Shown here one piece after another: positions 560 through 15,520 of a stretch of 64,000 nt of DNA (position 1 is its first letter; each line of letters begins with the position of its first letter). Location: positions 9,091 through 73,090 of the forward strand of contig JBIOVM010000175.1 of NCBI GenBank assembly GCA_044867785.1. Direction: 5' to 3'. The notes below the pieces were generated by a model. It was given only the letters and a program-made list of their open reading frames with translations, was not told the origin of the DNA and ran no database searches. Source of the DNA: Candidatus Rokuibacteriota bacterium (GTDB lineage Bacteria; Methylomirabilota; Methylomirabilia; Rokubacteriales; DASRDR01). Made by a program: the position numbers and the translations under genes.

Positions 560-1522
560 ATGACGCAGCCCCTGACCCACGAGGATGACCCGGGCCGCCT
601 GGGCGGCTATCGCCCCGGTTCCGGGTTGTGGGTGAAGCTCGTTCGGAACGACCTGCTCCTGCGGCTGCGCTGGCGGGCCGAGGCGCAGGTATCCCGCGTG
701 ACCCTGTGGCTGAGCTGGGGTGCACGGGCGGTGCTCTATCGCGTGCGACCCGAATCCGGGCTCGCCAACCGCCCGCGTCAGTCCTGTTTCCTGTGCACGA
801 CGTGGAGGACCGGCAGCACCTTCCTCGGCGATGCCGTGCTCGCGGCCGTCGACCTGGATCTTTCTCGAGAGCCCTTCTACCTGAGTCATCAGCAGGCATC
901 CCTGGGAGCCGTGCTGCGAGGGCGGAGCCTGCTCCTGTACCTCGACCGCGTCGTAGTGGCCCGGGGGACGAATCAGCACGGAATCTTCGGGACCAAGACG
1001 ATGTGGACACACTTCCAGGAGGTGCTGCGTTGCCTGCGCGCGATCCCGGAGTATCGATCCCTGGGCGAGTTCGAGGTGCTGCGGTCCGTGTTCCCGGAAC
1101 CGGTGTTCCTGTTCCTGACACGGAGAGACAAGTTGCGACAGGCCATCTCGTTCTACCGTGCCCAGACCTCCCAGGTCTGGCACCGAGACGATAGCGGCCG
1201 CCTGTACACCACTCCCGGGCCGGCTCGTGTCGATCCGGAGTACGACTACGTTCGCATCCGGGCGGCCCGTGAAACGATCAGGAAAGAAGAGGAGGGGTGG
1301 AGGGACTTCTTTCACAGGAACGGAATCCAGCCGCTGGAGATGAGCTATGAGGAGACCTGCGAGAACCTCCCGGCCGTCCGCGGTCGGATCCTCGAGCGGC
1401 TCGGCCACCGCGTCCAGGACGAACGGCTGGGGGGTGCCCGCTCGAAATACGTCAAGCTAGCCGACCCCAAGACCGAGGAGTGGGTTGAACGCTTCCGCTC
1501 TGACAGCGGGAAGGCCATGTAG
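560..1522 (+). CDS. Stf0-family sulfotransferase
   Basis: CTTWRTGSTFL (5'-PSB), FGTKTMWTH, LTRRDKLRQAISFYRAQTSQVW (3'-PB), W..FF...GIQPLEMSYEE. Confidence 0.85.
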   Translation: MTQPLTHEDDPGRLGGYRPGSGLWVKLVRNDLLLRLRWRAEAQVSRVTLWLSWGARAVLYRVRPESGLANRPRQSCFLCTTWRTGSTFLGDAVLAAVDLDLSREPFYLSHQQASLGAVLRGRSLLLYLDRVVVARGTNQHGIFGTKTMWTHFQEVLRCLRAIPEYRSLGEFEVLRSVFPEPVFLFLTRRDKLRQAISFYRAQTSQVWHRDDSGRLYTTPGPARVDPEYDYVRIRAARETIRKEEEGWRDFFHRNGIQPLEMSYEETCENLPAVRGRILERLGHRVQDERLGGARSKYVKLADPKTEEWVERFRSDSGKAM

Positions 1523-1892
1523 CCCCCCTTCGGAGCGTGCGGGGGGGGGCCCAGTGAAGCCGGAAAGTACGACGAGATCAGAAACGCGAGCACGGTGAGT
1601 CTTTGTCAACAGGCCAAGAAGGATTCGCCAACTTCCAGAACGAGAGCACCTGCGTGAGCGACCAGTTCCGGTAAGAATTGGGGCAAGGGCAGCGACGGTG
1701 CCGTTGGCCCGCATCGCTCTGTCCGCCGCCGTCCAGTCTGCCCGCCGAACCGGGGAGGTGGTTCTCACCCACGTCTTCCCGAGGCCGCGCCGGGCCGCTC
1801 TGGCCCCTCCCGGTCCGGCCTACCGCGTGCTAGAGTTCGGCGGTTCCGGAATGAGCCGGCCGGGCTGACGGCGAGGCCGCGAAAGGGGGGCA

Positions 1893-2573
1893 TTGAAACA
1901 GGTCTTGGGCCGCCTCCGTTCGATTGCAGCTCGCGTCGCGAGCCGTGCACTGGCGCGACGGGGAAGACCGATGCCGGCTGCCGAACACCACGCCGACCTA
2001 CCATTCATCTTCATCATAGGCTTCAACAAGACCGCCACCACCTCGCTCCACACGTTCTTCGCAAGCAACGGGTTTCCGAGCGTTCACTGGGACCGCGGAA
2101 AGCTTGCGAGGCGCATGGTCGAGAACTGCCTGGATGATCGCCCGATCCTCGACGGCTACGACCAGGAGTTCCGAGTCTTCTCGGACATGCAGGCCCAGTC
2201 CAGCCGCATCCGCATCGAAGCAAACCAGTATTTCCGTGTGCTCGATCGCGACTATCCAGGCGCGTACTTCATCTTGAACACCCGCGATCTCGACAAGTGG
2301 ATCAGCAGCCGCTCTTCCGACTTCGTGACGCCGCACGGGGCGACAAATCTGGAACTGGAGATGCGCAGGCTGGGTAGCACCGACCGACAGGAGGCGGTGC
2401 AGCTCTGGGCACGGGAGCGAAACACATTCGAGGCAGAGGTCCGGCGATACTTTCGGCACAACCCGAAGTTCTTGGAAATCGACATCACCGATCCTGACCT
2501 GCCGCACCGTATTTCTCGACTCATTGGCAGGACGATGGACGCGGAACATTGGAAGCATATTCGGACGAATTGA
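1893..2573 (+). CDS. Sulfotransferase family protein (start may be ATG 1971)
   Basis: IFIIGFNKTATTSL PAPS-binding loop; YFILNTRDLDKWISSR 3'-PB motif. Confidence 0.8.
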   Translation: MKQVLGRLRSIAARVASRALARRGRPMPAAEHHADLPFIFIIGFNKTATTSLHTFFASNGFPSVHWDRGKLARRMVENCLDDRPILDGYDQEFRVFSDMQAQSSRIRIEANQYFRVLDRDYPGAYFILNTRDLDKWISSRSSDFVTPHGATNLELEMRRLGSTDRQEAVQLWARERNTFEAEVRRYFRHNPKFLEIDITDPDLPHRISRLIGRTMDAEHWKHIRTN

Positions 2574-2946
2574 GTGTGGGGCGCCATCGCCCCGTGTCAC
2601 CGCTCTGGGATTGTCGAAACCGCGGATCGGCGTGATCTGCTGCCCGTCAACCGCACAGGCATGCGACAATACGCCCGTTCTCTCGGCCACGTACGATTCC
2701 ATCGCCCGGGTGCTGACCCTTCTCGCCGCCGGGGTGGATGTTCGCGTAGCGTCGGGCCACGTCTGCGACATCACCTCGCCGGGTACGGCCGACTTGCTAG
2801 ATGAGGTATTCGCCGCGAAGAGCGCGGCGGCGCATCGACTCCACACCGCCCATCGTGCTCGGCTGCGGGCGCACCTTGATCATGATCGCGCGGCCGTCGC
2901 GGCGGTAGCGGACCGTCACGCCGCCGCCGTGGTACGACCGGAGTGA
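2524..2946 (+). CDS. Hypothetical protein or C-terminal gene remnant (start uncertain)
   Basis: Its TGA overlaps the GTG start of the next gene (GTGA at 2943-2946). No recognisable motif. Confidence 0.3.
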   Translation: MAGRWTRNIGSIFGRIECGAPSPRVTALGLSKPRIGVICCPSTAQACDNTPVLSATYDSIARVLTLLAAGVDVRVASGHVCDITSPGTADLLDEVFAAKSAAAHRLHTAHRARLRAHLDHDRAAVAAVADRHAAAVVRPE

Positions 2947-5900
2947 CTGTCGAGCGCCCTGTCGGAGCGGAAGGTCCCTGTTCGGACATCCTGTCCCTTC
3001 TGCGTAGACGGGCCGCTGCCCACCCGGAGCGGACAGCGATCGAAGCTGAGGACGGCGAGGTGCTGACCTATGCCGCGCTCCTGGCGCGGACCGAGGGGCT
3101 TGCCGCTGCTCTGCGCTCGCGCGACGAAGTCAGGCAGGGGGGCAGTCGGATCGGGATCGTCCTGCCCAATGGCCTAGCGATGTCGCAGGCTCTGCTGGCC
3201 GTCAGCTGTGTCGGAGTCGCCCTCCCCTACAATCCAGCCTATACCGAGCCGGAATTCGAGGCCTACTTCCGAGACATGGCCCTCGACGCCCTACTGACGC
3301 GCCCCTCCTTCGTACCCACGGCCGTGCGGGTGGCGGCGCGACTTGGCGTGCCGGTGCTCGACCTCGATGTGGTGGGACAGGAAACACGGGACGCGAATGA
3401 TCTCTCAGCCCCCGCACCCGATGCCATCACGATGGTGCTCTTGACCTCCGGATCGACTGGAAGGGCGAAACGAGTGCCGCTGAGCCACGGCAATGTCTGC
3501 ACTTCCGCCCGCCATGTCAGCCGTTCGATGGGCCTCGGCCCCGACGATCGCTGCCTCAGCATGTGGGAGCTCTACCATATCGGTGGACTGGTCGATCTGC
3601 TGCTCGCTCCGCTCGATGCAGGCAGCACCGTCATCGCGACCGCCGGCTTCGACGCACCCCGGTTCTTCGACCTTCTCGACCGCGCCCGCCCGACCTGGTT
3701 CCAGGGAGTGCCGGCGACGCTCGGCGAGATCGCGCTCCATGCGCGCCGCGCCGGCATTGACCCGCGCGGATCGAGCTTGCGGCTGCTCCGGTCGGTTGCC
3801 GCCGCGTTGCCGCCGGCGTTGATGTCGGAGCTCGAGACCCTATTCGGCGTGCCCGTCCTTCAAACCTTCGGCATGACCGAGGCTGGCCCACTGATCACCT
3901 CTACAGCGCTTCCTCCGGCCGAACGGGCGGCAGGGTCGGTCGGCCGGTCGTGTGGCACGGAAGTGAAGATCTTCGCACCGGACTGGACGACAATCATCGA
4001 CGGGACGGAAGGCGAGGTCGCAGTCCGGGGCCCGAACGTGTTCGCCGGATACGAAGGCGATTCGGCCGCGAACGCCGAAGCCTTCCGCGACGGCTGGTTC
4101 CGCACCGGGGACCTCGGACGCCTCGATGCGGCCGGAAACCTCTACCTGACTGGCCGCATCAAGGAACTGATCAACCGCGGTGGCGAGAAGGTGAGCCTCC
4201 GGGAGGTCGATGATGCTCTCCTCTGCCATCCCGCGATCCGCGAGGCGGCGGCCTTTCCCCTTGCGCACAGGACCCTCGGTGAAGACGTCGCTGCCGCCGT
4301 TGTGTTGCAGCCCGGCGCCGCTGCAACGCCGGCCGAATTGCGAGTGTTTGTCGCCGGGCGACTCGCCGGGTTCAAGGTTCCGCGCACCATCATCTTTCTT
4401 GACGTACTGCCCCGCAATGCCGTCGGCAAGATCGATCGCCGCGCCATCGCGCAGGAAGCGGGAGGTCTGCCGGCGACGCAATCGGCGGACCTTACCAGGC
4501 TTTCCGGATCCGAAGCGCAGATCGCCGCAATCTGGGTGCGCGAGCTAGACCTGCGGGCGATTGGGCTGGACGACGAGTTCGCCACCCTCGGCGGCAATTC
4601 CCTCTCCGCGCTCCGCGTGCTCCTCGCCATCGAGAAAGAGCTTGGCAAAGCCCTACCGGACGACGCCATAGCCAACAACACGACGGTACGGTCGCTTGCG
4701 CGCGCTCTGTCGAGTCGGGATGCCGGCGACGTCGCGAGGTCCGCGGACGCGGCTGGAACGCTCTCCCAGTCCGAGCGGCAACAGATTCTCGCCATTGCCG
4801 GCACCGGCGCCATCCCGGCGCTCGCGCCAGGCTCCACCCTGAAGGTCGTCAACCGCGGCGGAACGCGGCGGCCGCTGATCTGGTTCTTCAATTCCCCGAG
4901 CCGTGAGATGAAGGTCATGTCCCAATGCCTACCGCCGGACCAGCCGCTCTACGGCGGCTTCTCGGGCGCAGGGATGTTTGACTGGAACGACAGCAGGCGG
5001 ATGTCCGGCATCGCGGAGCTGTACGCTGCCGAACTCCTCGACCGGTTCCCACACGGCAGCTTCGCGATCGGCGGGAACTGCCAAGGGGGCCGGGTCGGCT
5101 GGATGGCCGCCAAGCTCTTACAAGAGGCAGGACGCGAAGTGGATGCGCTCTGTTTCCTCGAGTTCTCGGATCCCGAGCTTACGCAGTTCGACGGGCGCCT
5201 CTTGATGATGTTCGGTAAGCAGAGCGTAAGTCGCCACTACCGCCCTATCCGATGGGGCCGGCCAGGTTGGGATACCTCCTTCAGCCACCGGCCGGTCGTG
5301 TCCTGGATCGACGGGGTGCATGGCGGCTTTTGGCGCGACGAAACGGTCCCGGGACTGGTCGACGTGCTCCTCAGGTTCCTGGACGGCAGGCCGGTCCGGC
5401 GAAACACGCTGGACTCGACCCTGGGCCGCGCCTTGATGTTCATCCACAGGAGTCCCCATCTGTTTCGCCTCTACTGCGCCTGCCATGAGATCAAGACGAG
5501 GCTCCGGTCCGGGAACCGGTTCGGGCTCCGACGTGCGCGGCCTATCGTGCACCGGGCAGACCAACGGCTCTCGCAGCATCCAGCCGAGGCTCGAATCAGC
5601 GTCGGCGGTAGGAGGCGACAAACGTGGACGAACCGCTTGCGAGGCCTCCGTGCAGCGTTTGCGAAGCCATCCCGGCGCCGAGTGGCCCGCGACGATTTCC
5701 CCTATGAGCTTTCGGTCGCCGCGATCTTCAGGGACGAGGCCCGGTTCCTGAGCGAATGGCTTCATTTCCACGACGGCGTTGGCGTCGATCACTTCTTTCT
5801 CTACGACGACGACAGCTCCGACGATTTCCTGGCAATTCTCGGCCCCTGGATCTCAGCCGGCAAGGTCACCCTGATCGACGGCAGGGGAAAGGACCAGGTG

Positions 5901-6536
5901 TCGGCCTACGATGACTGCATCCGCCGCTTCGCCGACAAGTCTCGCTGGATCGCCTTCATCGACCTCGACGAATTCCTCTTCTCGCCGAAGTCGCGCGACC
6001 TGAAGCACGTCCTGCGTAACTACCGGGATCTGCCGGCGATCTTCGTGTATTGGGTGCTCTACGGATCGTCCGGGCATGTCTCACGCCCCGATGGCTACGT
6101 GATCGATTCCTACACGCGCTGTCTGGACCTCGAGGCCGCCGGCGCCGAGCGGTTCGATCACGGCCGGGACGAGAACTATGTGACGGGATGGGCGCGCGAC
6201 GGGAAGTCGATCGTGAATCCGCGCAGCGTCGTCAAGATGGGTGCGCATGTCCCACGGGTCCTGAGATCGGGCGAGGTGGTCGACGAAAACCGCAGGCCGG
6301 CCCTGCGCCGTGGCGGCGCCAGTCCGATCACCTGCGACTGGCTGCGGATCAATCACTATTGGTCGAAGTCGATCGAGGACCTGAGCGAGAAGGTGGAGAA
6401 GGGCGACATATTCGATCGTGCCCGCCCACCGCGCAGGCTCGAGACGTGGCTCAGGCGTGAGGCGTGCTTGAACGTAACCCGCGACGAATCGATCCGGCTG
6501 ATCTGGGCGGAGATCAGGAAGGAACGGGGTCTTTAA
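2943..6536 (+). CDS. Fusion: AMP-binding (acyl-CoA ligase-like) + acyl carrier + thioesterase-like (Cys nucleophile) + GT92/GT2-like glycosyltransferase
   Basis: A-domain motifs LTSGSTGRAK, FGMTEAG, FRTGDLG, GRIKELINRGGEK, LPRNAVGKID; ACP LGGNSL; TE GGNCQGG and GVHGG; C-terminal AIFRDEARFLSEWLHFH..VDHFFLYD..WIAFIDLDEFL..INHYWSKS. Confidence 0.85.
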   Translation: MTVERPVGAEGPCSDILSLLRRRAAAHPERTAIEAEDGEVLTYAALLARTEGLAAALRSRDEVRQGGSRIGIVLPNGLAMSQALLAVSCVGVALPYNPAYTEPEFEAYFRDMALDALLTRPSFVPTAVRVAARLGVPVLDLDVVGQETRDANDLSAPAPDAITMVLLTSGSTGRAKRVPLSHGNVCTSARHVSRSMGLGPDDRCLSMWELYHIGGLVDLLLAPLDAGSTVIATAGFDAPRFFDLLDRARPTWFQGVPATLGEIALHARRAGIDPRGSSLRLLRSVAAALPPALMSELETLFGVPVLQTFGMTEAGPLITSTALPPAERAAGSVGRSCGTEVKIFAPDWTTIIDGTEGEVAVRGPNVFAGYEGDSAANAEAFRDGWFRTGDLGRLDAAGNLYLTGRIKELINRGGEKVSLREVDDALLCHPAIREAAAFPLAHRTLGEDVAAAVVLQPGAAATPAELRVFVAGRLAGFKVPRTIIFLDVLPRNAVGKIDRRAIAQEAGGLPATQSADLTRLSGSEAQIAAIWVRELDLRAIGLDDEFATLGGNSLSALRVLLAIEKELGKALPDDAIANNTTVRSLARALSSRDAGDVARSADAAGTLSQSERQQILAIAGTGAIPALAPGSTLKVVNRGGTRRPLIWFFNSPSREMKVMSQCLPPDQPLYGGFSGAGMFDWNDSRRMSGIAELYAAELLDRFPHGSFAIGGNCQGGRVGWMAAKLLQEAGREVDALCFLEFSDPELTQFDGRLLMMFGKQSVSRHYRPIRWGRPGWDTSFSHRPVVSWIDGVHGGFWRDETVPGLVDVLLRFLDGRPVRRNTLDSTLGRALMFIHRSPHLFRLYCACHEIKTRLRSGNRFGLRRARPIVHRADQRLSQHPAEARISVGGRRRQTWTNRLRGLRAAFAKPSRRRVARDDFPYELSVAAIFRDEARFLSEWLHFHDGVGVDHFFLYDDDSSDDFLAILGPWISAGKVTLIDGRGKDQVSAYDDCIRRFADKSRWIAFIDLDEFLFSPKSRDLKHVLRNYRDLPAIFVYWVLYGSSGHVSRPDGYVIDSYTRCLDLEAAGAERFDHGRDENYVTGWARDGKSIVNPRSVVKMGAHVPRVLRSGEVVDENRRPALRRGGASPITCDWLRINHYWSKSIEDLSEKVEKGDIFDRARPPRRLETWLRREACLNVTRDESIRLIWAEIRKERGL

Positions 6537-6793: not shown

Positions 6794-7639
6794 CTAGCGC
6801 GTGATTCCCCAGCGGCGCCGGAGGCCCTGCGCGATCCGACGGGGGACCAGGTAGACGATGGCCGAGCGGACCAGTCCAAGGTAGCAGTGGACGTCGTACG
6901 GCGAGAAGTAGCGTAACTGGACCACGATCCGGTCACGCTCCGCGGCACGGCGATGCACGCGGACGACCGAGGGCCCGGACTCGGACCTGCTGACCAGCAC
7001 CTTGGGGACATTGGCGCACGGGAACTTCTCCGCGACCCGGCGAAAGAGATCGTAGTCCTGGGCCAGGTCCACGCTCTCGTCGTAATAGCCGACGGCCCGC
7101 AGCACACTTGTCCGCATCATGCAGGTCGGATGGCTGAAGGCCGTCCGGTAGCGCATCCGGCGTCGAATGGCGCCCCAGTGCTCCGGATAGTGGGTGTGGA
7201 ACAGCGTGCGTCCGTTCGCGTCGACGTGACGCGTGAAGCCCCCGACCAGCGCTACCTCGGGATGGGCCTCCAGGTACGCCAGCTGGGTGGACAGCCGGTC
7301 TCCGAGATCCAGGTCGCCCGCATCCTGGCGAGCCACGTAGGTGTACGGTCGGGAAAGGACATAGCGTAGACCGACGTTCAGCGCGGCGGTCACGCCGCGG
7401 TTGACGGGCTGGCGGAGTAGCACGACCGGATGGACGTAACGCGCTGGATCGATGAGGGTCGGAGGGATGCTGCCGTCATCGACCACCACGATGTCGAGGT
7501 CGGAACCCTGGGCATCGACCGAGTCGAGCGTACGGGCCAGATCCTCGACGGCGTTGTAGACAGGGATCAGCACGGCCAGGTTGGGGACGCGTCGACAGGG
7601 ATCGCTTCGGAGGCGGCCCTGACCGATCGCAAGTGGCAC
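6794..7639 (-). CDS. Glycosyltransferase family 2
   Basis: VLIPVYN, VVVDDGS, ARQDAGD, HPT, AQDYDLF. GTG start inferred 7 nt from a TATACT box; the longer track ORF is the antisense shadow of the GT4 gene. Confidence 0.9.
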   Translation of the reverse strand: MPLAIGQGRLRSDPCRRVPNLAVLIPVYNAVEDLARTLDSVDAQGSDLDIVVVDDGSIPPTLIDPARYVHPVVLLRQPVNRGVTAALNVGLRYVLSRPYTYVARQDAGDLDLGDRLSTQLAYLEAHPEVALVGGFTRHVDANGRTLFHTHYPEHWGAIRRRMRYRTAFSHPTCMMRTSVLRAVGYYDESVDLAQDYDLFRRVAEKFPCANVPKVLVSRSESGPSVVRVHRRAAERDRIVVQLRYFSPYDVHCYLGLVRSAIVYLVPRRIAQGLRRRWGITR

Positions 7640-7645
7640 GGATGC

Positions 7646-7654
7646 TAGTATAAC
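7646..7654. promoter_or_regulatory. Overlapping bidirectional -10 elements (TAGTAT/TATAAC on +, TATACT on -)
   Basis: The only AT-rich patch in the 24-nt gap between divergent starts GTG 7639 (-) and ATG 7664 (+). Confidence 0.6.
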
Positions 7655-7663
7655 CAGCGCGCC

Positions 7664-8938
7664 ATGACATCCTATCGCGTCGTCGTCGGGGCCACCTCTG
7701 GTCTCGTGAGCGGCGTCGACGTCTTCGCCGGCCATCTGGTGCGGGGGTTGCTGAGGCTGGGAATGTCCGCGCACATCCTGACGACCTTCCCCCCTCACAG
7801 GACAACGACTCATCCCATGGCGTTCCCCCGGGACCTGCCGGTGGCCAGGCTTCCGGTAAACCTGCGGGCCAGCTGGCCGGCGCGCTGGCAAGCGATGATG
7901 AGCTACCTCGAGGCGCAGGCTCCGTGCGTCTACATCCCCAACTCCGACTGGGGCCACTCCTGCGTCTGTTCCCGGCTCAGTGAAACTGTACGAGTCGTGG
8001 GGATCGTCCATAGCGACGATCCCGTTCACTACGAACACGTGGCCCGCCTGGGAGCGTACTGGAACGCGGTGGTCACCGTGAGCGATGCCATCGCCCTCCG
8101 CGTGACACGGCTCCTGCCGAGCCACGCTGCTCGGATCGCCACGATCCCCTATGGGGTGCCGATTCCCGATCAGCTCAGCGAGCAGCGGTTCACGGACAGC
8201 GGGCGGCTCCGCGTGGTGTACGCCGGGCGACTGGTGCAGGCGCAGAAGCGTGTCCTCGATCTGCCAAGAATCGTCAAGCGGGCGCTGGAGCAGGGTGTCG
8301 ACATGGAACTGCTCGTGGCCGGCGCGGGAGACGACGAGCGCCGGCTGCGAGCGGACTGTGACCTCCTCGTGAATCGCGGCGTGGTGCGGTTTCTCGGCAC
8401 CCGGCCCAACGCCGAGGTGTTGCGTCTGTTCGAGTCCGCTGACGCCATGCTCCTGCCGTCCGAGTTCGAGGGGCTTCCCGTGAGCGTGATCGAGGCCATG
8501 GGCCGAGGATGCGTCCCGGTTGTCTCCGATGTTGCCAGCGGCATTCCGGAACTCATCGAGGACGGCGTCTCTGGCTATCGCGTCAGGCTCGGCGACGTTC
8601 CCGAGTTCGCGCGGCGGCTCGCTATCCTGTACCGCGACCCGCCGGCGCGCCGCGCCATGGGGTTCGCCGCGCACCGGGCGGTGCTTCGTGGCGGCTACCG
8701 CGTCGAGGACATGGTCGGTCGCTACGCGGAATTGTTCGAGCGCGTCGACACGGAGGCGCGCTCGGGCGCCTACCGACGGCGGCCCGGCCCGATCGTGCCG
8801 CGTCCGGGCCTCTACAGCGCCAGGTGGAAGGCGCGGCTGCCTGGCCCTGTGCGGGCGATCGGACGGCTCGGCGAGCGCGCCGTCCGTGCCCTGGCTTCCC
8901 GCGCGCGAGCACTGCGGGACAGGTGGCCGGGCTCCTAG
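7664..8938 (+). CDS. Glycosyltransferase family 4
   Basis: YAGRLVQAQKR; PSEFEGLPVSVIEAMGRG (EX7E); ELIEDGVSG. Confidence 0.92.
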   Translation: MTSYRVVVGATSGLVSGVDVFAGHLVRGLLRLGMSAHILTTFPPHRTTTHPMAFPRDLPVARLPVNLRASWPARWQAMMSYLEAQAPCVYIPNSDWGHSCVCSRLSETVRVVGIVHSDDPVHYEHVARLGAYWNAVVTVSDAIALRVTRLLPSHAARIATIPYGVPIPDQLSEQRFTDSGRLRVVYAGRLVQAQKRVLDLPRIVKRALEQGVDMELLVAGAGDDERRLRADCDLLVNRGVVRFLGTRPNAEVLRLFESADAMLLPSEFEGLPVSVIEAMGRGCVPVVSDVASGIPELIEDGVSGYRVRLGDVPEFARRLAILYRDPPARRAMGFAAHRAVLRGGYRVEDMVGRYAELFERVDTEARSGAYRRRPGPIVPRPGLYSARWKARLPGPVRAIGRLGERAVRALASRARALRDRWPGS

Positions 8939-11253
8939 TCGACGCCTCGCACGGCCGAGCGTCCGTCAGCCAGGAGCGAGCGATAGTCCGGCGGCAACAG
9001 GGCGGTGGTCATTTCGGGGGCCAGTCTCACTGACCCGCGGGGACGGGTGCGCAGGAGATAGCACACCGCGTGAGCCCACAGAGGCGGTGGAAGGATCGCC
9101 TGCAGCGCCCAGAGCTCCGGGGAGGGCAGTTGCTCGCTCTGCGCGTGGTCGTGAGCGCTCGTCAAGGTGCCGGCGACCACGACCGGGCGCCACCGCTGCC
9201 TGCGCCCGGGCCGGCGCCGAGCAGGGGATCCAAGGCTCGTTGTGGGTGCCAGAACGTAAGCCAGGAACGAGCGCCCGCCAGGAACCCGCGAAAGGGCGTC
9301 CCGTAGCCAGCCGAGCAAGGGCCGAAGGGCCGACGCCCGCAACAAGCCCACGAGCGCCGCCGTCCCGCTGCCGCCGATCAACGGGACCTCCTGAATCTGA
9401 TCTCGCGACCAGTCTGGAATGGGCGGGGCCGTGACCGATGCGGCCCGGGTCGTGGCCTCTCGAGCCAGGGTATCGAGGACGACTTCCCAGCGCGCGGACT
9501 CGGCGGGGTAGCTGAACCCGCGAATCGCCGCCGCGACCAGCACGGGAACCCCGGCGACCTGCACGAAGCCCGTTCCCTGGAGCACCAGCTGGCAAAGCGC
9601 CCGGTCGATGGCGCCGGGCTCCAGCCGAGAGCCGGCGCGGATGAAGGACACGCATTCCTCGGTGGTCGTAGAAACGGCAGTGGCCGCCGTTTTCCAGGCG
9701 TTCGTCTGCGATCGCAGACGTGTTGTCCCGGAGACGCGCGAGCCTCTCCGCCCTTGCGACAGGATCGTCACGGCGACCGGCTGATCCGCGACCGTGGCGA
9801 GCGTTCGCCGCAGCTTGCCGCGCTCACCGCGCCTGGCGAGAACGAACAGCTCGACTCCATTGCGCTCCGGCTGCCGTCGATCCAGCTGCGGGCGAGAGTC
9901 GGGCCGCCTGGAGCTGTGTCTGACCGCTCGGGCCATGAGGGCCCGGTAGTGAGCCTCCATCTGCTCCGCCACCTGCCGGTGATCGAAGCGCTTCTCCGCC
10001 CGGACCCGCGCTGCGGAGCCCAGCCGCCTTCGCAACGGGGCATCCCCGGCCAGGCGGACGATGGCAGCGGCGAGTGCCAGCGGATCGCCCGGGGGGATGA
10101 TGATGCCGCTCTCGCCATCGACGACGTACTCCGGCATGCCTCCGGCATTCGTCCCGATCACCGGGATGCCGGACGCCATGGCTTCGACGCAGGTGAAAGG
10201 CGCGTTGTCGTAGTACGAGGGCACGACCGCGATGTCGGACTCCTGGTAGACCGTGGCCACGCCACCGAGCGGCACGGGGCCCTCGAACCGCACGCGGTCG
10301 TCGAACGAACGGTCGGTCCGGTCGGCGAGCAGGAGCGAATCGCGGCCCACGATCCGGAACTCCACCGCGGGATTCCGGGCCAGCACCAGGGGAATGGCCT
10401 CCAGAAGGACATCCGCGCCCTTCCGCTGATCCAGGCGGCCGACGAAGCACACTCGGACCCGGTCGTCTCGCCGAGAGCCAGGCCTGAAAACGGACAGATC
10501 GACCGGAGAGGGAACGATCTCCACTTCACGGGCCAGGCCGAAGAACGTCACCGCGCGGTCCGCGAGATCCTGGCTGGCCGTGGTGAGACCGTCCGCGCGA
10601 CCCATGAGCATGCCTTCCAGCACGGCCACCGAATCGGTGTCCAGAGCCGGCCACGGCTGAAAGCGCATGGCGGCGAGCATGGACAACGGGGTGTACAGCC
10701 GCACGGTCTTGGGGCCGTGCCAGCGTAGCGCCGGCCAAAGGCCATCGGCCGCGTAGTCGGCGAGATCGATCACGTCGAAGGGCCCGTGCGCTTGCTCGAC
10801 TTCCTGCAGCTGCCGGGAGGCCGCCAGGCTCCAGAAGAATACCGCCGGACCCACGGTGAGCTGCCCCGCCAAGGCGAGCGCTTCGAACGATCGGCGTTCG
10901 CTCCTTGGACGGGGTGCAATCCGGATGACGTCGGCACGGCCATCGAGCTCCCGCCGGGCGGAGGGCGTTCCGAGCGCGATGATGGTCACCCGGTGCCCTG
11001 CCTCCACGAGCCCGCAAGCGAGACGGTAGGTGTACGTCGCCATGCCTCCGTAGGCGGAATCCGGCGGGTACTCGCGGCAGATCAGGGCAACGCTGAGCTT
11101 GCCCGGCGCGGGCCGGGTCGCCGGCTCGGGCGGAAGCTGCAGCACCAGGCCTTCGAGCCGCTGCAGGACTGCCGCCGGATCAGGTACGACTCCACCATCG
11201 CGGACTGCTTGCACGCAGCGATCGAAGTAGGCGCGGAACATCCTCAGAGCCAT
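8935..11253 (-). CDS. Glycosyltransferase family 4 with long C-terminal extension
   Basis: ICREYPP..YGGMATY, FVGRLDQRKG, PSYYDNAPFTCVEAMASG; about 330 extra C-terminal residues. Confidence 0.85.
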   Translation of the reverse strand: MALRMFRAYFDRCVQAVRDGGVVPDPAAVLQRLEGLVLQLPPEPATRPAPGKLSVALICREYPPDSAYGGMATYTYRLACGLVEAGHRVTIIALGTPSARRELDGRADVIRIAPRPRSERRSFEALALAGQLTVGPAVFFWSLAASRQLQEVEQAHGPFDVIDLADYAADGLWPALRWHGPKTVRLYTPLSMLAAMRFQPWPALDTDSVAVLEGMLMGRADGLTTASQDLADRAVTFFGLAREVEIVPSPVDLSVFRPGSRRDDRVRVCFVGRLDQRKGADVLLEAIPLVLARNPAVEFRIVGRDSLLLADRTDRSFDDRVRFEGPVPLGGVATVYQESDIAVVPSYYDNAPFTCVEAMASGIPVIGTNAGGMPEYVVDGESGIIIPPGDPLALAAAIVRLAGDAPLRRRLGSAARVRAEKRFDHRQVAEQMEAHYRALMARAVRHSSRRPDSRPQLDRRQPERNGVELFVLARRGERGKLRRTLATVADQPVAVTILSQGRRGSRVSGTTRLRSQTNAWKTAATAVSTTTEECVSFIRAGSRLEPGAIDRALCQLVLQGTGFVQVAGVPVLVAAAIRGFSYPAESARWEVVLDTLAREATTRAASVTAPPIPDWSRDQIQEVPLIGGSGTAALVGLLRASALRPLLGWLRDALSRVPGGRSFLAYVLAPTTSLGSPARRRPGRRQRWRPVVVAGTLTSAHDHAQSEQLPSPELWALQAILPPPLWAHAVCYLLRTRPRGSVRLAPEMTTALLPPDYRSLLADGRSAVRGVD

Positions 11254-11391: not shown

Positions 11392-11463
11392 CTAAGCGGC
11401 CTGTCCGGCAAGGAGTGCGATCAGGGACACCAACTCGTACGCGTGGACCGGCTTGGCGAGGTG
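11392..11463 (-). pseudogene. C-terminal stub of a response-regulator receiver domain
   Basis: Reads HLAKPVHAYELVSLIALLAGQAA*, the KP motif and helix 5 of a REC domain; nothing REC-like upstream. Confidence 0.6.
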
Positions 11464-11611
11464 GCGACATCAAGAACAACGCCTGCGTCGGGGACCAGGC
11501 CTGTCAAGGCAACGCGGGTGTTGTTGGGAATGGCGCCTGCGTCGGGGGGGACGCCTGCGCGTCAAACACGGGCGACATCAAGAACAACGCCTGGGTCGGG
11601 GACCAGGCCTG
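11463..11611 (+). repeat. 41-bp near-perfect direct repeat, 108-bp spacing
   Basis: ggcgacatcaagaacaacgcctg(c/g)gtcggggaccaggcctg at 11463 and 11571. Confidence 0.85.
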
Positions 11612-11914
11612 CTTGAGCAACGCGGGCGCCACGATTTCGAACCACGCCTGCGCCGGCGACGGCGGCTGCCACCTAAACACGGGCGCCATCGGGCCCGGCG
11701 CCTGCGTCGGGCTCAACGCCTGCTTCTTCAACGCGGGCGCCAAGATTGGGCCCGGCGCCTGCGCCGGGGAGGCCGCCTGCCACCCAAACACGGGCGACAT
11801 TGGGCCCGGTGCCGCGTCGGAGTCGAAGCCTGTCTGAACAACTCCGGCACCATCGGGCCCGGCCAGTGCATCGGCGACGGGGTGTGCCAGAACAACACGG
11901 CCGACATCCCGTAG
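11463..11914 (+). pseudogene. 5'-truncated, frameshifted Cys/Gly/Asn-rich tandem-repeat protein
   Basis: About 8 units of IGxGACxGxxACxxNxGx (18-19 aa). A 1-nt deletion near 11813 shifts into ..VGVEACLNNSGTIGPGQCIGDGVCQNNTADIP*. Confidence 0.7.
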
Positions 11915-12029: not shown

Positions 12030-14390
12030 TCAGACGCGCGGCGGATCCGTGGCGCGATCCCAATTGCGATGCTTGCCGACCGCGCCGATGAACGCCCGGA
12101 CCTCGCGCACGATCGCCCAGTCGGCCCGATCGTCGGTCGGCACGCCGGCGGCGGTCGCGACCTCTCTGCCGGCCCCGACGAGGAGGATCGGCTTGCAGTG
12201 CCGGTACTGGTCCCGGAGGAACTCGCGCGCGTGCCCCAGCGCAGCGAGCGCCGTAGCCGCCTTCGGACCGTCCGGCACCACGACGGCGTCGAAGAGCACG
12301 GACGGCATCGTCTCGAGCGTGCCGTCGGGCTCCACTGTGTCCCCGTCGGCGCTCTGGATGGCGGCGAGCCGGGGCCCGACGAGGCGGACGACCGCCTCCG
12401 CGGCCGTCAGGGCCTTCTGCGTCGTGGCCACCGAGTCGCCGTCCACCCCGGGCGCCACGAGGATCGCGATCCGGCGCCCGCGGATACCGCCGTCACCCGG
12501 CCGAGCGGTCAGGGACAAGGCCGGCGATCGGCTCACGTCGGGCGCCGGCGGCTCGATGACGCGCGGCATGGGCCGCGGGAACGCCAGCCCGAGCGCGTCG
12601 GCGACCGGCTTGGCCAGCTCGTCCGAGACGTTCCGGAGCATGGAGACCGTCCGGTCGCGGATCGCGGGGACCTGGACCTTGGTCAGCTCGAAGCGGAAGG
12701 CCCGGATGATGTGCGCCTTCTCGTACGCGGTCTGGCTGTTCCAGAAAAGGGTGGCCTGCGAGTAGTGGTCGGCGAACTTCTCCGGCTTCCCCCGCACCTT
12801 GTCGGCCTCGATGGGCTCGGGGAAGCTCGTGAACCCGCGCGTCCCCATCTGGAACGGGCAGCCGCCGCCGAGCGAGTTGGGCTCGTAGGCCACGCGGCCC
12901 CGGTGGACGGCCTGGCGATGGAAGCCGTCGCGCTGGTTGTTGTGCGCTTGGGCGACGGGCGCGTTGATGGGGATCTCGTGGAAGTTCGGGCCCCCCAGCC
13001 GGAGGAGCTGGGTGTCGAAGTAGGAGTGGATGCGCCCCGCCAGCAGGGGGTCGTTGGAGAAGTCGATGCCAGGCACCAGGTTCTGAACGCCGAACGCGAC
13101 CTGCTCGGTCTCGGCGAAGAAGTTGTCGGGGTTCCGGTTCAGCACCATGCGGCCCACGGGGGTGACGGGCACCAGCTCCTCCGGCACGATCTTGGTCGCG
13201 TCGAGGACGTCGAAGCCGAACCGGTTGGCCTGCTCCTCGGTGAAGATCTGGAATCCGAGCTCGTACTCGGGGAACACGCCGGCCTCGATCGACTCCCACA
13301 GGTCGCGGCGCGTGAAGTCCGGATCCGCGCCCCCGATCTTCACGGACTCGTCCCAGTCCAGCGAGTGCGTGCCGGCCACCGGGGTCCAGTGGAACTTGAC
13401 GAAGTGGGACGCGCCCCCGGCGTTGACCAGCCGGAACGTGTGGACCCCGAAGCCCTGCATCATGCGGAAGCTGCGGGGAAGCGCGCGGTCCGACATGACC
13501 CACAGCAGCATGTGGGTCGACTCCGGCATCAGGGAGACGAAGTCCCAGAAGGTGTCATGGGCGCTCGCCGCCTGCGGCATCGCGTGGTGCGGCTCGGGCT
13601 TGAGCGCGTGCACCAGGTCCGGGAACTTGATCGCGTCCTGGATGAAGAAGATGGGGATGTTGTTCCCCACGATGTCGAAGTTCCCCTCGTCCGTGTAGAA
13701 CTTCGTGGCGAACCCCCGCACGTCGCGCGGCGTGTCGATGGAGCCGCGCTCGCCCTGGACGGTCGAGAAGCGCACGAAGACGGGGGTCTGCTTGCCTTTC
13801 TCCGACAGGAAGGCGGCGCGCGTGTACTTCGCCTGCGACGCGTAGCACTCGAACACGCCGTGCGCGGCGGAGCCGCGGGCGTGGACGATCCGCTCGGGGA
13901 TGCGCTCGTGGTCGAAGTGGGTGATCTTCTCCCGGAGGATGAAGTCTTCCAGCAGCGCGGGGCCGCGGAGGCCGGCCTTGAGGGAATTCTGGTTGTCGGC
14001 GACCGGCTGGCCGAAGTTCGTCGTGAGCCCGCGGCCGGCGGAGTCGACCCGCACGCGGTCGAGCGGCGCGTTGGTGGGATTGAGGCCGGATTCCGCGGGG
14101 CTACCCGTCTTCGGGGACTCGGTCTGCTCGGTCAGCGTGCTGGCGGTGACCGAGGCGTCGGCGGGCTCGGCGGTCGCGCCGGGCTTCGGCTTCCGGGAGG
14201 CGTCGCCGATCTCGCCGGGCTTGGACCGGTTGAAGGGGAAGGCCGCCGCCAGCGCTTGCGTCTTCTGCATCTTCGCCACGGCGGGGTCGGCGCCGTCGCC
14301 ATTCGGGCCACGGGGCCCTCGGCGCGGGCCGCTGACGGTCGACTTGGCGGCGCCCTTCGCCGAGGACGGGGACTTGCGTGTCTTGGCCAT
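12030..14390 (-). CDS. katE: Large-subunit monofunctional catalase HPII with C-terminal DJ-1-like domain
   Basis: [49 protein letters not shown]; GAGG RBS before ATG 14390. Confidence 0.95.
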
Positions 14391-14482
14391 GGATGTATGC
14401 CTCGCATCAGCGAGCGCGGCAGCGCCGCCCTCGGTTGTGGTTGAGCGGAGTGCGGGCCGCCCGCGGCGAGCCGCTGGAGACT

Positions 14483-14728
14483 TCATACGGCCGGAGCGAG
14501 GACGATCTTCGTGCAGTCGTCCGTCTTGTCGTTCCACATCCGGTAGGCGTCGGGCGCGCGAGAGAGCGGGAGCCGATGGCTCACGACGAACGCCGGGTCG
14601 ATCTCCCGAGCGCGGATGCGCTCGAGCAGCGGACGGAGGTACCGGTGGACGTAGAGCTCGTCCGGCGACCGCTCGACGGTGACCGTGCGCTCGACGTGGA
14701 GGCCGCGGCCTCCGGCCAGCGTCGGCAT
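14483..14728 (-). pseudogene. In-frame chimera of an SRPBCC/cyclase N-terminus and a Zn-dependent (formaldehyde) dehydrogenase C-terminus
   Basis: GLHVERTVTVERSPDELY joined to VHRYLRPLLERI..IDPAFVVSHRLPLSRAPDAYRMWNDKTDDCTKIVL. Confidence 0.7.
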
Positions 14729-14857
14729 GTCCGGGCGGCGCTTCGTCGTGTGCGGCGGCCGCGGCCGGGACCACACCCACAGCGCGCCCACGCGAGGAAG
14801 ACGACGAGGAGCGCTGCGGGCCCGCTGGCCTGACGGGTGACCCGTCCGAGCCCGGGC

Positions 14858-15520
14858 TCATGCGCTGCGGACAGTACCGTCCGACCGGTCGGGTACGGGA
14901 CGGTCGAGGTCCGTTCGGGGGTCATGTCCGGGGTCATCGTCGGTACTCCCTTCCTGAGTCTGGGGATCGGCCCCGCACGAATCGCCGGGGAGCACGCTGT
15001 CCAGCGTGCTGACCACCACGCGGATGTCGGTCGGGGTGGCGAGCTCCCGCTCGCCGGAATCGGACGGGAGCGGGATGTCGAGCGCCTGCGCGATCCGCTC
15101 CAGCAGCGCCACCGTCTTCGTCGATTCCTGCTCCGCCAGCAGGTTGACCTGGAGGTCGAGGTGGGCCCGGCGCTCGCTCTGCCGGGTGAGGTTGTTCTGG
15201 CTGACCAGGACGAAAACCGACAGGAAGATCGCCTCCAGGGAGACGACCAGCGTGAGGAAGCTGAACGGAAACGGATCGATGGGCCGCCAGCCGGGCGCGA
15301 GCCCGGTATTCCAGATCAGCCATCCCGCGAACCACACGACGTGGAGCCCGGCGAACCATCCCGTGCCGGCCGTCCGCGCGATGGCGTCCGACAAGCGCGC
15401 CGCGGCCGTCTGTCGCGCTCGATCCGCGGCCTCGAGCTGGGCGATCGCCTCGACGTTCCGCGCCAGGAGCGGGGAGGCCGGCCCGCGGCCATTCGGCGAT
15501 CCCTCCCGTGGAGTCGGCAT
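14858..15520 (-). CDS. DUF1003 membrane protein
   Basis: IDPFPFSFLTLVVSLEAIFLSVFVLVSQN...AHLDLQVNLLAEQE. Confidence 0.88.
   Translation of the reverse strand: MPTPREGSPNGRGPASPLLARNVEAIAQLEAADRARQTAAARLSDAIARTAGTGWFAGLHVVWFAGWLIWNTGLAPGWRPIDPFPFSFLTLVVSLEAIFLSVFVLVSQNNLTRQSERRAHLDLQVNLLAEQESTKTVALLERIAQALDIPLPSDSGERELATPTDIRVVVSTLDSVLPGDSCGADPQTQEGSTDDDPGHDPRTDLDRPVPDRSDGTVRSA

What the first reader, a model, noticed from the sequence alone, without database searches (positions are those of the whole stretch)
560..6536. Adenylation-ACP-thioesterase-GT92 fusion next to two sulfotransferases
Seen: one 1197-aa ORF joins an acyl-CoA-ligase-type A domain, a carrier domain (GGNS, Ser codon 4599-4601), an alpha/beta hydrolase and a GT-A fold GT92-like domain. 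It lies downstream of an Stf0-like and a second sulfotransferase. Known: Stf0 plus an acyl-AMP ligase contributes to mycobacterial sulfolipid synthesis. Inference: a one-polypeptide machine that activates a small acid and attaches it to a sugar during synthesis of a sulfated, acylated glycan or glycolipid. I do not know this architecture from characterised proteins.
Basis: partly seen in the sequence, partly recalled or inferred. Interest (0 to 1): 0.75.

Follow-up and report, generated by a model that had tools for sequence, protein, structure and literature searches.

The report
Recently fused acyl-loading and sugar enzyme
In one soil bacterium two neighbouring genes, an acid-activating enzyme and a sugar-transferring enzyme, have recently merged into one protein; the merger is local, but it points to an unstudied, mobile gene set found in several bacterial groups whose product is unknown.

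Summary
The 1197-aa A-carrier-thioesterase-GT92 frame is real: independent assemblies carry it without an indel. It is a recent read-through, not an established architecture. Only one 90% cluster is fused; the next seven relatives stop at 852-860 aa, the twelve closest GT92s stand alone, and locus L009 holds both genes in one frame, split by one stop. Both halves remain under purifying selection after fusion (dN/dS 0.38, p 3e-4); the linker does not. Behind it lies an uncharacterised cassette: an oxalate-CoA-ligase-like A domain that has lost the oxalate-binding residues, a cysteine thioesterase, and a CodA/AtzC-like amidohydrolase beside 15 of 17 such A domains and 0 of 16 oxalate-type ones, with GT92, sulfotransferases or P450 as variable partners. 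Here the amidohydrolase is a deleted remnant. Best reading: it loads a small polar acid and transfers it through Cys713 to a sugar acceptor; substrate and acceptor are inferred. It is not the mycobacterial sulfolipid pathway.

The parts
560..1522 (+). Stf0-family sulfotransferase; local neighbour, not part of the conserved cassette in the loci examined
   Evidence: PF09037 E 6e-37; NF047724 85.9 vs cut-off 400; PDB 1TEX E 3e-21; no match in related loci
1893..2573 (+). Sulfotransfer_4-family sulfotransferase; cassette member (start codon uncertain)
   Evidence: PF17784; remnants in the same position in L004 and L005; 57% homologue beside the cassette in L156; dN/dS 0.19 vs L002, p 0.02
2600..2946 (+). 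Remnant (C-terminal third) of a CodA/AtzC-like amidohydrolase gene; about 250 N-terminal codons deleted, a further 13-codon deletion, last metal ligand lost
   Evidence: 61% to residues 252-379 of the 380-aa L004 protein; DNA alignments; 9 non-synonymous to 1 synonymous change vs L002; no intact copy found in G000
2943..6536 (+). Fused ORF, 1197 aa: A - carrier - Cys thioesterase - linker - GT92
3000..4430 (+). Adenylation domain, oxalate-CoA-ligase/FadD7-like, with G214, A286, P316 in place of AtAAE3 His216, Ser289, His319; catalytic K496 kept
4518..4709 (+). Carrier domain, Ser553 at 4599-4601 (Ser in 64 of 64 aligned rows)
4860..5387 (+). Type I thioesterase-like domain with Cys713 (5079-5081), Glu740 (5160-5162), His793 (5319-5321); triad assigned by alignment, not by structure
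   Evidence: Cys 64 of 64, Glu/Asp 63 of 64, His 62 of 64; best PDB match AB3403
5517..5609 (+). Linker: former intergenic spacer read in frame
   Evidence: nearest split relatives stop 2 residues after N858; 4 non-synonymous to 1 synonymous change; 53% of shuffled 30-codon spacers are stop-free
5610..6536 (+). GT92-like (GT-A) domain; former separate gene starting at codon 890 or 894; DxD motif D1007-L-D1009-E at 5961-5972
   Evidence: no deviation at any column conserved in at least 90% of 65 relatives
6794..11253 (.). Adjacent GT2 (minus), GT4 (7664-8938, plus) and GT4 (8935-11253, minus) genes; neighbours, link to the cassette not shown
   Evidence: collinear in near-identical L007 and L008

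Best explanation
Origin (shown): an ancestral two-gene arrangement, A-T-TE(Cys) followed by GT92, lost its stop codon; the short spacer was read in frame and the GT start decayed, giving one protein in a single species-level lineage that took up the cassette as a lower-GC island. Mechanism (inferred): the A domain adenylates a small polar carboxylic acid other than oxalate and loads it on the phosphopantetheine of Ser553; the thioesterase takes it on Cys713 and, rather than hydrolysing it, passes it to a hydroxyl or amine of a sugar acceptor that the GT92 builds or extends; the sulfotransferases add sulfate from PAPS. In intact cassettes the amidohydrolase probably makes or trims the acid; here the acid must come from elsewhere or the substrate has shifted. 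The fusion only ties together two steps of an existing pathway. Odds: recent read-through 0.93; fused protein still functional 0.7; sugar acylation as the chemistry, given function, 0.6.
For: Fused in 1 of 120 listed relatives; next seven (75-84%) end at 852-860 aa. Twelve closest full-length GT92s (72-81%) are 306-312 aa. Among 120 listed longer GT92 proteins only P0002 carries an A domain. L009: TE, TGA, 15 nt, in-frame ATG of GT92. Fused rows nest inside split rows, sister P0003, SH-aLRT 99 (quick tree). dN/dS window vs L002: 0.38 whole (29 syn, 31 non-syn; p 3e-4), 0.33 A-T-TE (p 6e-4), GT92 0.39 (p 0.08) and 0.22 vs L008 (p 0.02). Partnership older than the fusion: 12 exact longest-contig-length matches between 119 A-T-hydrolase and 119 GT92 clusters against about 0.5 by chance (indirect); L156 holds A-T-TE, amidohydrolase, sulfotransferase and GT92 at 36-57% identity; an independent A-T-TE-GT4 fusion, P0086. 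Host has three PPTase-family and one full APS-kinase match. No transmembrane segment, basic amphipathic ends on all enzymes (88th-100th percentile within own protein; weak).
Against: No substrate, acceptor or product is known and no structure could be predicted. The most constant partner, the amidohydrolase, is broken here and no intact copy was found in G000. dN/dS 0.38 is higher than 0.16-0.26 between more distant split relatives, though the very close split pair L003/L004 gives 0.48. GT92 was seen in only 3 of the related split loci (L004, L009, L156); six others have a P450 and no GT92 match. The window deviates at 4 columns conserved in at least 85% of relatives, including GGNS for GGDS. 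Of 120 relatives with the same pocket type, 24 have a serine hydrolase instead of the Cys domain, so cysteine is not essential to the pathway.
Confidence: 0.45

Rival explanations
1. Decaying cassette: the island lost its amidohydrolase, the A-T-TE is idle or nearly so, and the read-through is a symptom of relaxed selection; at most the GT92 still works.
For: Amidohydrolase deleted in both fused loci; it sits beside 15 of 17 A domains of this pocket type; related copies L004-L006 are also interrupted by insertion sequences; an IS1595 transposase lies just upstream of the window; a stop-free spacer is a coin toss.
Against: Non-synonymous changes are depleted in the A-T-TE part after the fusion and the deletion, which both compared loci share (p 6e-4), whereas the remnant and the linker evolve freely; all catalytic residues are kept; no stop or indel listed in five cluster members or two bridging contigs.
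Confidence: 0.25
2. Small-molecule pathway: the A-T-TE releases a small acyl product (amide, lactone or lactam, as the Cys thioesterases SulM and ObiF1 do) that P450, sulfotransferase and GT92 then tailor; no surface glycan is involved.
For: Cys nucleophile plus sulfotransferase recalls sulfazecin synthesis (PMC11298585, passages); P450 beside the cassette in L133, L137, L138, L139, L141, L157; 2OG/TauD oxygenases in L136 and L004; an A-T-sulfotransferase fusion next to a C-T-Cys-TE gene in L145. No flippase or polymerase among the neighbours scanned.
Against: SulM's Gln-Cys-Asn motif is absent (Asn-Cys-Gln here) and the acid aligns with the after-beta6 position of AB3403, not SulM's; no condensation domain; other neighbours are GT2, GT4, GT10 and FkbM genes typical of glycan loci.
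Confidence: 0.22
3. Sulfolipid-like long-chain acylation of sulfated trehalose, as in mycobacteria.
For: Stf0-family gene upstream; one GT92 relative is fused to an Stf0 domain (P0403).
Against: Stf0 equivalog cut-off missed by far; A domain is of the oxalate-CoA-ligase/FadD7 type; no PKS in the cassette; the Stf0-like gene is absent from related loci.
Confidence: 0.05
4. Assembly artefact joining two genes.
For: All close relatives are split.
Against: Same junction in L002 (98% DNA identity, so another strain), in cluster members from four sources and in bridging contigs of two other studies.
Confidence: 0.02

Closest known systems
Oxalate-CoA ligase AAE3/Pcs60 (PDB 5IE0, 6QJZ, 8AFF) and FadD7 family NF004511
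   Same: Best structural-sequence relatives of the A domain (E 2e-81; 343 bits, cut-off 650); core motifs and catalytic Lys kept.
   Different: Ser289 and His319, the residues reported as specific to oxalyl-CoA synthetases (PMC8905533, passages), are Ala and Pro; His216 is Gly; fused to a carrier and thioesterase instead of using CoA.
NRPS thioesterases with a Cys nucleophile: AB3403 (uncharacterised), SulM, ObiF1
   Same: G-x-C-x-G nucleophile elbow, His after the last strand; AB3403 is the top PDB match; sulfotransferase partner as with SulM/SulN.
   Different: No condensation domain, no amino-acid-type A domain, no Gln-Cys-Asn motif; neighbours are glycosyltransferases and an amidohydrolase.
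GT92 / plant galactan synthase GALS1 (PDB 8D3T)
   Same: PF01697 above cut-off; DxD region aligns (E 1e-9 over 96 residues).
   Different: Bacterial, no membrane anchor; donor and acceptor unknown; no bacterial GT92 characterisation surfaced among the 15 listed papers (listing only).
Cytosine deaminase CodA, AtzC and family PRK06886
   Same: Partner amidohydrolase keeps the His-x-His, His, Asp metal ligands and the bridging His; Asp-Asn pair and a basic residue as in AtzC Asp303-Asn304 and Lys65 (PMC4577212, passages).
   Different: CodA Glu217 is Gln in 42 of 42 rows and Gln156 is not kept; 132 bits against cut-off 340 for PRK06886; broken in this genome.
Mycobacterial sulfolipid-1 pathway (Stf0, FadD23, Pks2, PapA1/2; gene list recalled)
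   Same: One Stf0-family sulfotransferase and an acyl-adenylating enzyme nearby.
   Different: Every other component differs or was not found in the cassette.
Carrier-dependent glycan acylation systems such as DltA/DltC and AlmE/AlmF/AlmG (recalled, not tested)
   Same: Logic: adenylate a small acid, load a carrier, transfer to a cell-envelope glycan.
   Different: Those use amino-acid A domains, free carriers and unrelated transferases; here one chain with a thioesterase-fold transferase candidate.

Membership tests
Conserved four-domain A-T-TE-GT92 protein family | Fusion present in divergent relatives | tested here: not met
   1 of 120 listed relatives in each of two searches, 97-98% identical; nested in split forms
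Oxalate-CoA ligase (AAE3) | Ser289 and His319 oxalate-binding residues | tested here: not met
   A286 and P316 in 64 of 64 rows
Oxalate-CoA ligase (AAE3) | ANL core and catalytic Lys500 | tested here: met
   K496, TSG loop, D390, R405 in 64 of 64 rows
Mycobacterial sulfolipid-1 pathway | Trehalose 2-sulfotransferase equivalog | tested here: not met
   NF047724 85.9 bits vs 400; PF09037 family membership is met
Mycobacterial sulfolipid-1 pathway | Long-chain fatty acyl-AMP ligase plus PKS in the locus | tested here: not met
   No FAAL model among the 25 best of 108 NCBIfam hits shown; no PKS among the genes scanned around the ORF
Mycobacterial sulfolipid-1 pathway | PapA acyltransferases | tested here: inconclusive
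   PF16911 not found in G000 but the control rang nowhere
SulM/ObiF1 ring-forming Cys thioesterases | Cys nucleophile | tested here: met
   C713 in 64 of 64 rows
SulM/ObiF1 ring-forming Cys thioesterases | Gln-Cys-Asn motif (SulM) and multimodular NRPS with condensation domains | tested here: not met
   Asn-Cys-Gln; no C domain
SulM/ObiF1 ring-forming Cys thioesterases | Triad acid relocated after strand beta7 | tested here: inconclusive
   E740 aligns with the after-beta6 Asp of AB3403; no structure could be predicted
GT92 | PF01697 above cut-off and DxD motif | tested here: met
   79.5 vs 23 bits; D1007, D1009, E1010 conserved
GT92 | Galactosyl transfer from UDP-Gal | not testable with these tools
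   needs an assay
Cytosine deaminase CodA (partner gene in related loci) | Metal ligands His, His, His, Asp | tested here: met
   H27, H29, D304 invariant and H198 nearly invariant in 42 rows
Cytosine deaminase CodA (partner gene in related loci) | Catalytic Glu217 and Gln156 | tested here: not met
   Q201 invariant at the Glu217 position; no Gln in the consensus at Gln156

The most novel reading that the evidence does not exclude
The cassette is an undescribed route for decorating bacterial glycans (or making a glycosylated, sulfated metabolite) with an unusual nitrogen-bearing acyl group: a CodA-like enzyme with a rewired active site makes a small amide- or ureide-type acid (for example oxamate or oxalurate; a guess from the pocket and from hydantoin-racemase neighbours in L035 and L136), an oxalate-ligase-derived A domain loads it, and a cysteine thioesterase acts as the sugar acyltransferase. 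The window's fusion is then a working single-chain form caught just after it arose, and one that has done without the amidohydrolase.
Probability: 0.2. Interest if true: 0.8.

Novelty: new variant of a known kind. Interest (0 to 1): 0.5.

Why it matters
The fusion itself is a minor evolutionary event, though a well-documented one: the split ancestor, the lost stop, the dead start and selection after fusion can all be read. Its value is as a pointer. It ties a bacterial GT92 subfamily to a stand-alone A-T-TE family with a distinct, invariant substrate pocket and a dedicated amidohydrolase, seen in Alphaproteobacteria and Verrucomicrobiota and not found in the literature searches run. One soluble protein would allow substrate, Cys-thioesterase chemistry and GT92 activity to be tested together, and a cultured strain (Gemmobacter aquarius plasmid, L108) carries the intact amidohydrolase-A-T-TE pair.

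Tried and rejected
Out-of-frame GTG at 5624 as the old GT start: rejected; split relatives begin in frame. AGGAGG may be a ribosome site or simply the former first two codons; internal initiation at ACG would be 0.1-1% of AUG by E. coli data (10.1101/063800, passages). ORF 2524-2946 as a gene of its own: it is a remnant. The careful tree did not finish and the GT92 tree was not built. No RNA holder listed. Promoter and terminator scans: nothing above shuffles. PapA search uninformative. Reverse test with the amidohydrolase profile: 0 of 251 genomes of the host's phylum (no positive control in that call); 3 of 301 genomes of the phylum of G042 (two beside an A-T-TE, one at a contig end); 5 of 401 of the class of G041, all about 32% identical, without an A-T neighbour in 1.5-kb flanks, the one scanned belonging to PRK06886. 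Thioesterase query in 40 relatives of the host: best E 4e-23 at 30% identity inside long NRPS-like frames, no orthologue. Atlas feature searches gave only generic deaminase and thioesterase clusters. Literature searches for the combination: 0 papers, 1 unrelated by its listing; subscription journals are largely outside this library. No complex prediction was sent. Earlier-findings look-ups returned nothing on this system and one unrelated note.
Full report
Observation. The frame 2943-6536 is open for 1197 codons and carries AMP-binding, AMP-binding_C, PP-binding, a weak Thioesterase match and Glyco_transf_92. The window lies in G000 (5.58 Mb, 71.6% GC); the region is 60-67% GC, has an IS1595 transposase just before the window and no close counterpart in 40 relatives, which fits a recently acquired island.

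Real, not an artefact. L002 has the entire fused frame at 97% protein and 98% DNA identity. The cluster has five members from four sources, one being this genome, all with the linker. The stretch is held by 20 listed soil and rhizosphere runs of 15 studies, one marked as a possible source. Of four runs laid, contigs of X3 and X8 bridge the linker with no indel listed inside the ORF; X4 and X6 do not cover it; 55 substitution rows were not displayed.

Recent, not conserved. Of 120 listed relatives of the whole protein only P0002 carries GT92; the next seven (75-84%) end at 852-860 aa. The twelve closest full-length GT92 proteins (72-81%) are 306-312 aa. Among 120 listed longer GT92 proteins, of 131 found, only P0002 has an A domain (that search is weak evidence by the tool's own note). 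L009 shows the split state: thioesterase, TGA, 15 bases, ATG of GT92 in the same frame. In a quick IQ-TREE of 27 rows the three fused rows form one branch (SH-aLRT 99) inside split rows, next to P0003, which stops two residues after the window's N858. Split GT92s begin at positions matching codon 890 (now AGG) or 894 (now ACG). The linker has 4 non-synonymous changes to 1 synonymous, and 53% of shuffles of it are stop-free. So the linker is a read-through spacer; the exact mutations are not fixed.

Still under selection. Window and L002 share the fusion, so their differences postdate it: 29 synonymous and 31 non-synonymous changes, dN/dS 0.38, Fisher p 3e-4; A-T-TE alone 0.33 (p 6e-4); GT92 0.39 (p 0.08), and 0.22 against L008 (p 0.02). 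More distant split pairs give 0.16-0.26 and the very close split pair L003/L004 0.48, so 0.38 is compatible with ordinary selection at short distance but also with some relaxation. All catalytic residues are kept; GT92 has no deviation at columns conserved in 90% of 65 relatives; the A-T-TE deviates at 4 columns.

The cassette behind it. Between the second sulfotransferase and the ORF lies the C-terminal third of an amidohydrolase gene, evolving without constraint; no intact copy was found in G000. I sorted 34 related loci, picked by A-domain likeness, by 13 pocket residues (L135 dropped as a duplicate of L036, L010 not counted because truncated). Seventeen share the window's G-V-D-Q-V type: 15 have the amidohydrolase next door, one lacks upstream DNA, one (L145) lacks it. 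Sixteen rows (15 places) are of the oxalate type, 14 keeping all three oxalate residues: none has it, though 9 have only 1.5-kb flanks. The 17 are kin in about seven groups, so this is not 17 independent cases. Order and strand vary. Variable partners: GT92 (L004, L009, L156; and 12 exact contig-length matches between 119 and 119 clusters against about 0.5 expected, an indirect sign), sulfotransferases (L004, L005, L011, L036, L136, L156), P450 (L133, L137-L139, L141, L157), 2OG/TauD oxygenases, hydantoin-racemase family, GT10, FkbM. L156 holds A-T-TE, amidohydrolase, sulfotransferase and GT92 at 36-57% identity to ours. Named carriers include Gemmobacter aquarius and Prosthecobacter. The family is rare: by pocket type 1 of 401 genomes of the family of G041 and 8 of 301 of the order of G042. 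The Stf0-like gene matched none of these loci. GT92 relatives fuse readily: 15 of 120 listed longer ones carry a sulfotransferase domain, 9 of the best 12 after P0002, and P0086 is an A-T-TE-GT4 fusion.

Chemistry. The A domain is closest to oxalate-CoA ligases, but Ser289 and His319, described as specific to them (PMC8905533, passages), are Ala286 and Pro316 in 64 of 64 rows, His216 is Gly in 63, and Gln254 and Trp208 are invariant. Inference: a small polar acid that is not oxalate. The thioesterase has Cys713 (64 of 64), Glu/Asp740 and His793; its best PDB match is AB3403, an uncharacterised Cys thioesterase. Cysteine nucleophiles serve ring formation in SulM and ObiF1 (PMC11298585, passages); that cysteine favours transfer over hydrolysis is recalled knowledge. 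Of the 120 proteins, 93 have the Cys motif, 24 a Ser hydrolase, 3 neither. The amidohydrolase keeps the metal ligands but has Gln for CodA Glu217 and Asn for Asp314 in 42 of 42 rows, residues whose roles are given in PMC4577212 and PMC12828455 (passages): not a cytosine deaminase. The host has PPTase and APS-kinase genes. No enzyme has a transmembrane segment; their ends are basic and amphipathic, a weak hint of membrane association.

Reading. Shown: real fusion, recent origin, selection after fusion, cassette membership, altered pocket, broken partner. Inferred: load a small acid, pass it via Cys713 to a sugar acceptor handled by GT92, sulfate it (0.45). Rivals: decaying cassette (0.25), small-molecule pathway (0.22), sulfolipid-like (0.05), artefact (0.02). 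No structure model could be made.

Novelty. The four-domain protein was found only in this lineage. Searches for the combination gave no relevant paper (one search listed no bacterial GT92 study), within a library that lacks most subscription journals; supplements were not read. Each part belongs to a known kind and the overall logic resembles carrier-dependent acylation, so I file it as a new variant of a known kind.

Noticed in passing
L145:4373-10461 (G609:C27): A-T-sulfotransferase fusion of the same pocket type followed by a C-T-Cys-thioesterase gene, without the amidohydrolase; P0085 is a similar A-T-C-T-TE form.
   Followed up: partly
P0089, P0095, P0110, P0115, P0116, P0120; L133, L136: A sister group of about 910-940 aa has the same A pocket but a different C-terminal alpha/beta hydrolase with Ser (GTSxGG) and no Pfam match.
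   Followed up: partly
L136:7449-14462: Two divergent copies of the amidohydrolase flank the A-T-hydrolase, with two 2OG oxygenases, sulfotransferases and a hydantoin-racemase-family gene.
   Followed up: no
L148, L149, L151, L152: About 480-aa amidohydrolases (L148 is PRK06886) with an N-terminal domain resembling the end of carbamoyl-phosphate synthase large subunit, in alphaproteobacterial-class genomes.
   Followed up: no
L037, L110-L118, L142-L147: Oxalate-type A domains fused to or beside carrier and NRPS modules, keeping His216, Ser289, His319: candidate oxalyl starter modules.
   Followed up: partly
window 11415-11837 +: Small Cys/Gly-rich repeat protein (DUF7640, PF24646).
   Followed up: no
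window 12030-14861 -: Large catalase-like ORF (by eye from the translation; not scanned).
   Followed up: no
L001:3479-5482 - (upstream of the window): Long ORF with no Pfam or NCBIfam match at the thresholds used; also an IS1595 transposase at L001:8024-8992.
   Followed up: partly
P0416-P0459: A family of about 1666-aa GT92-GT2-methyltransferase multidomain proteins, several named from Dyella.
   Followed up: no
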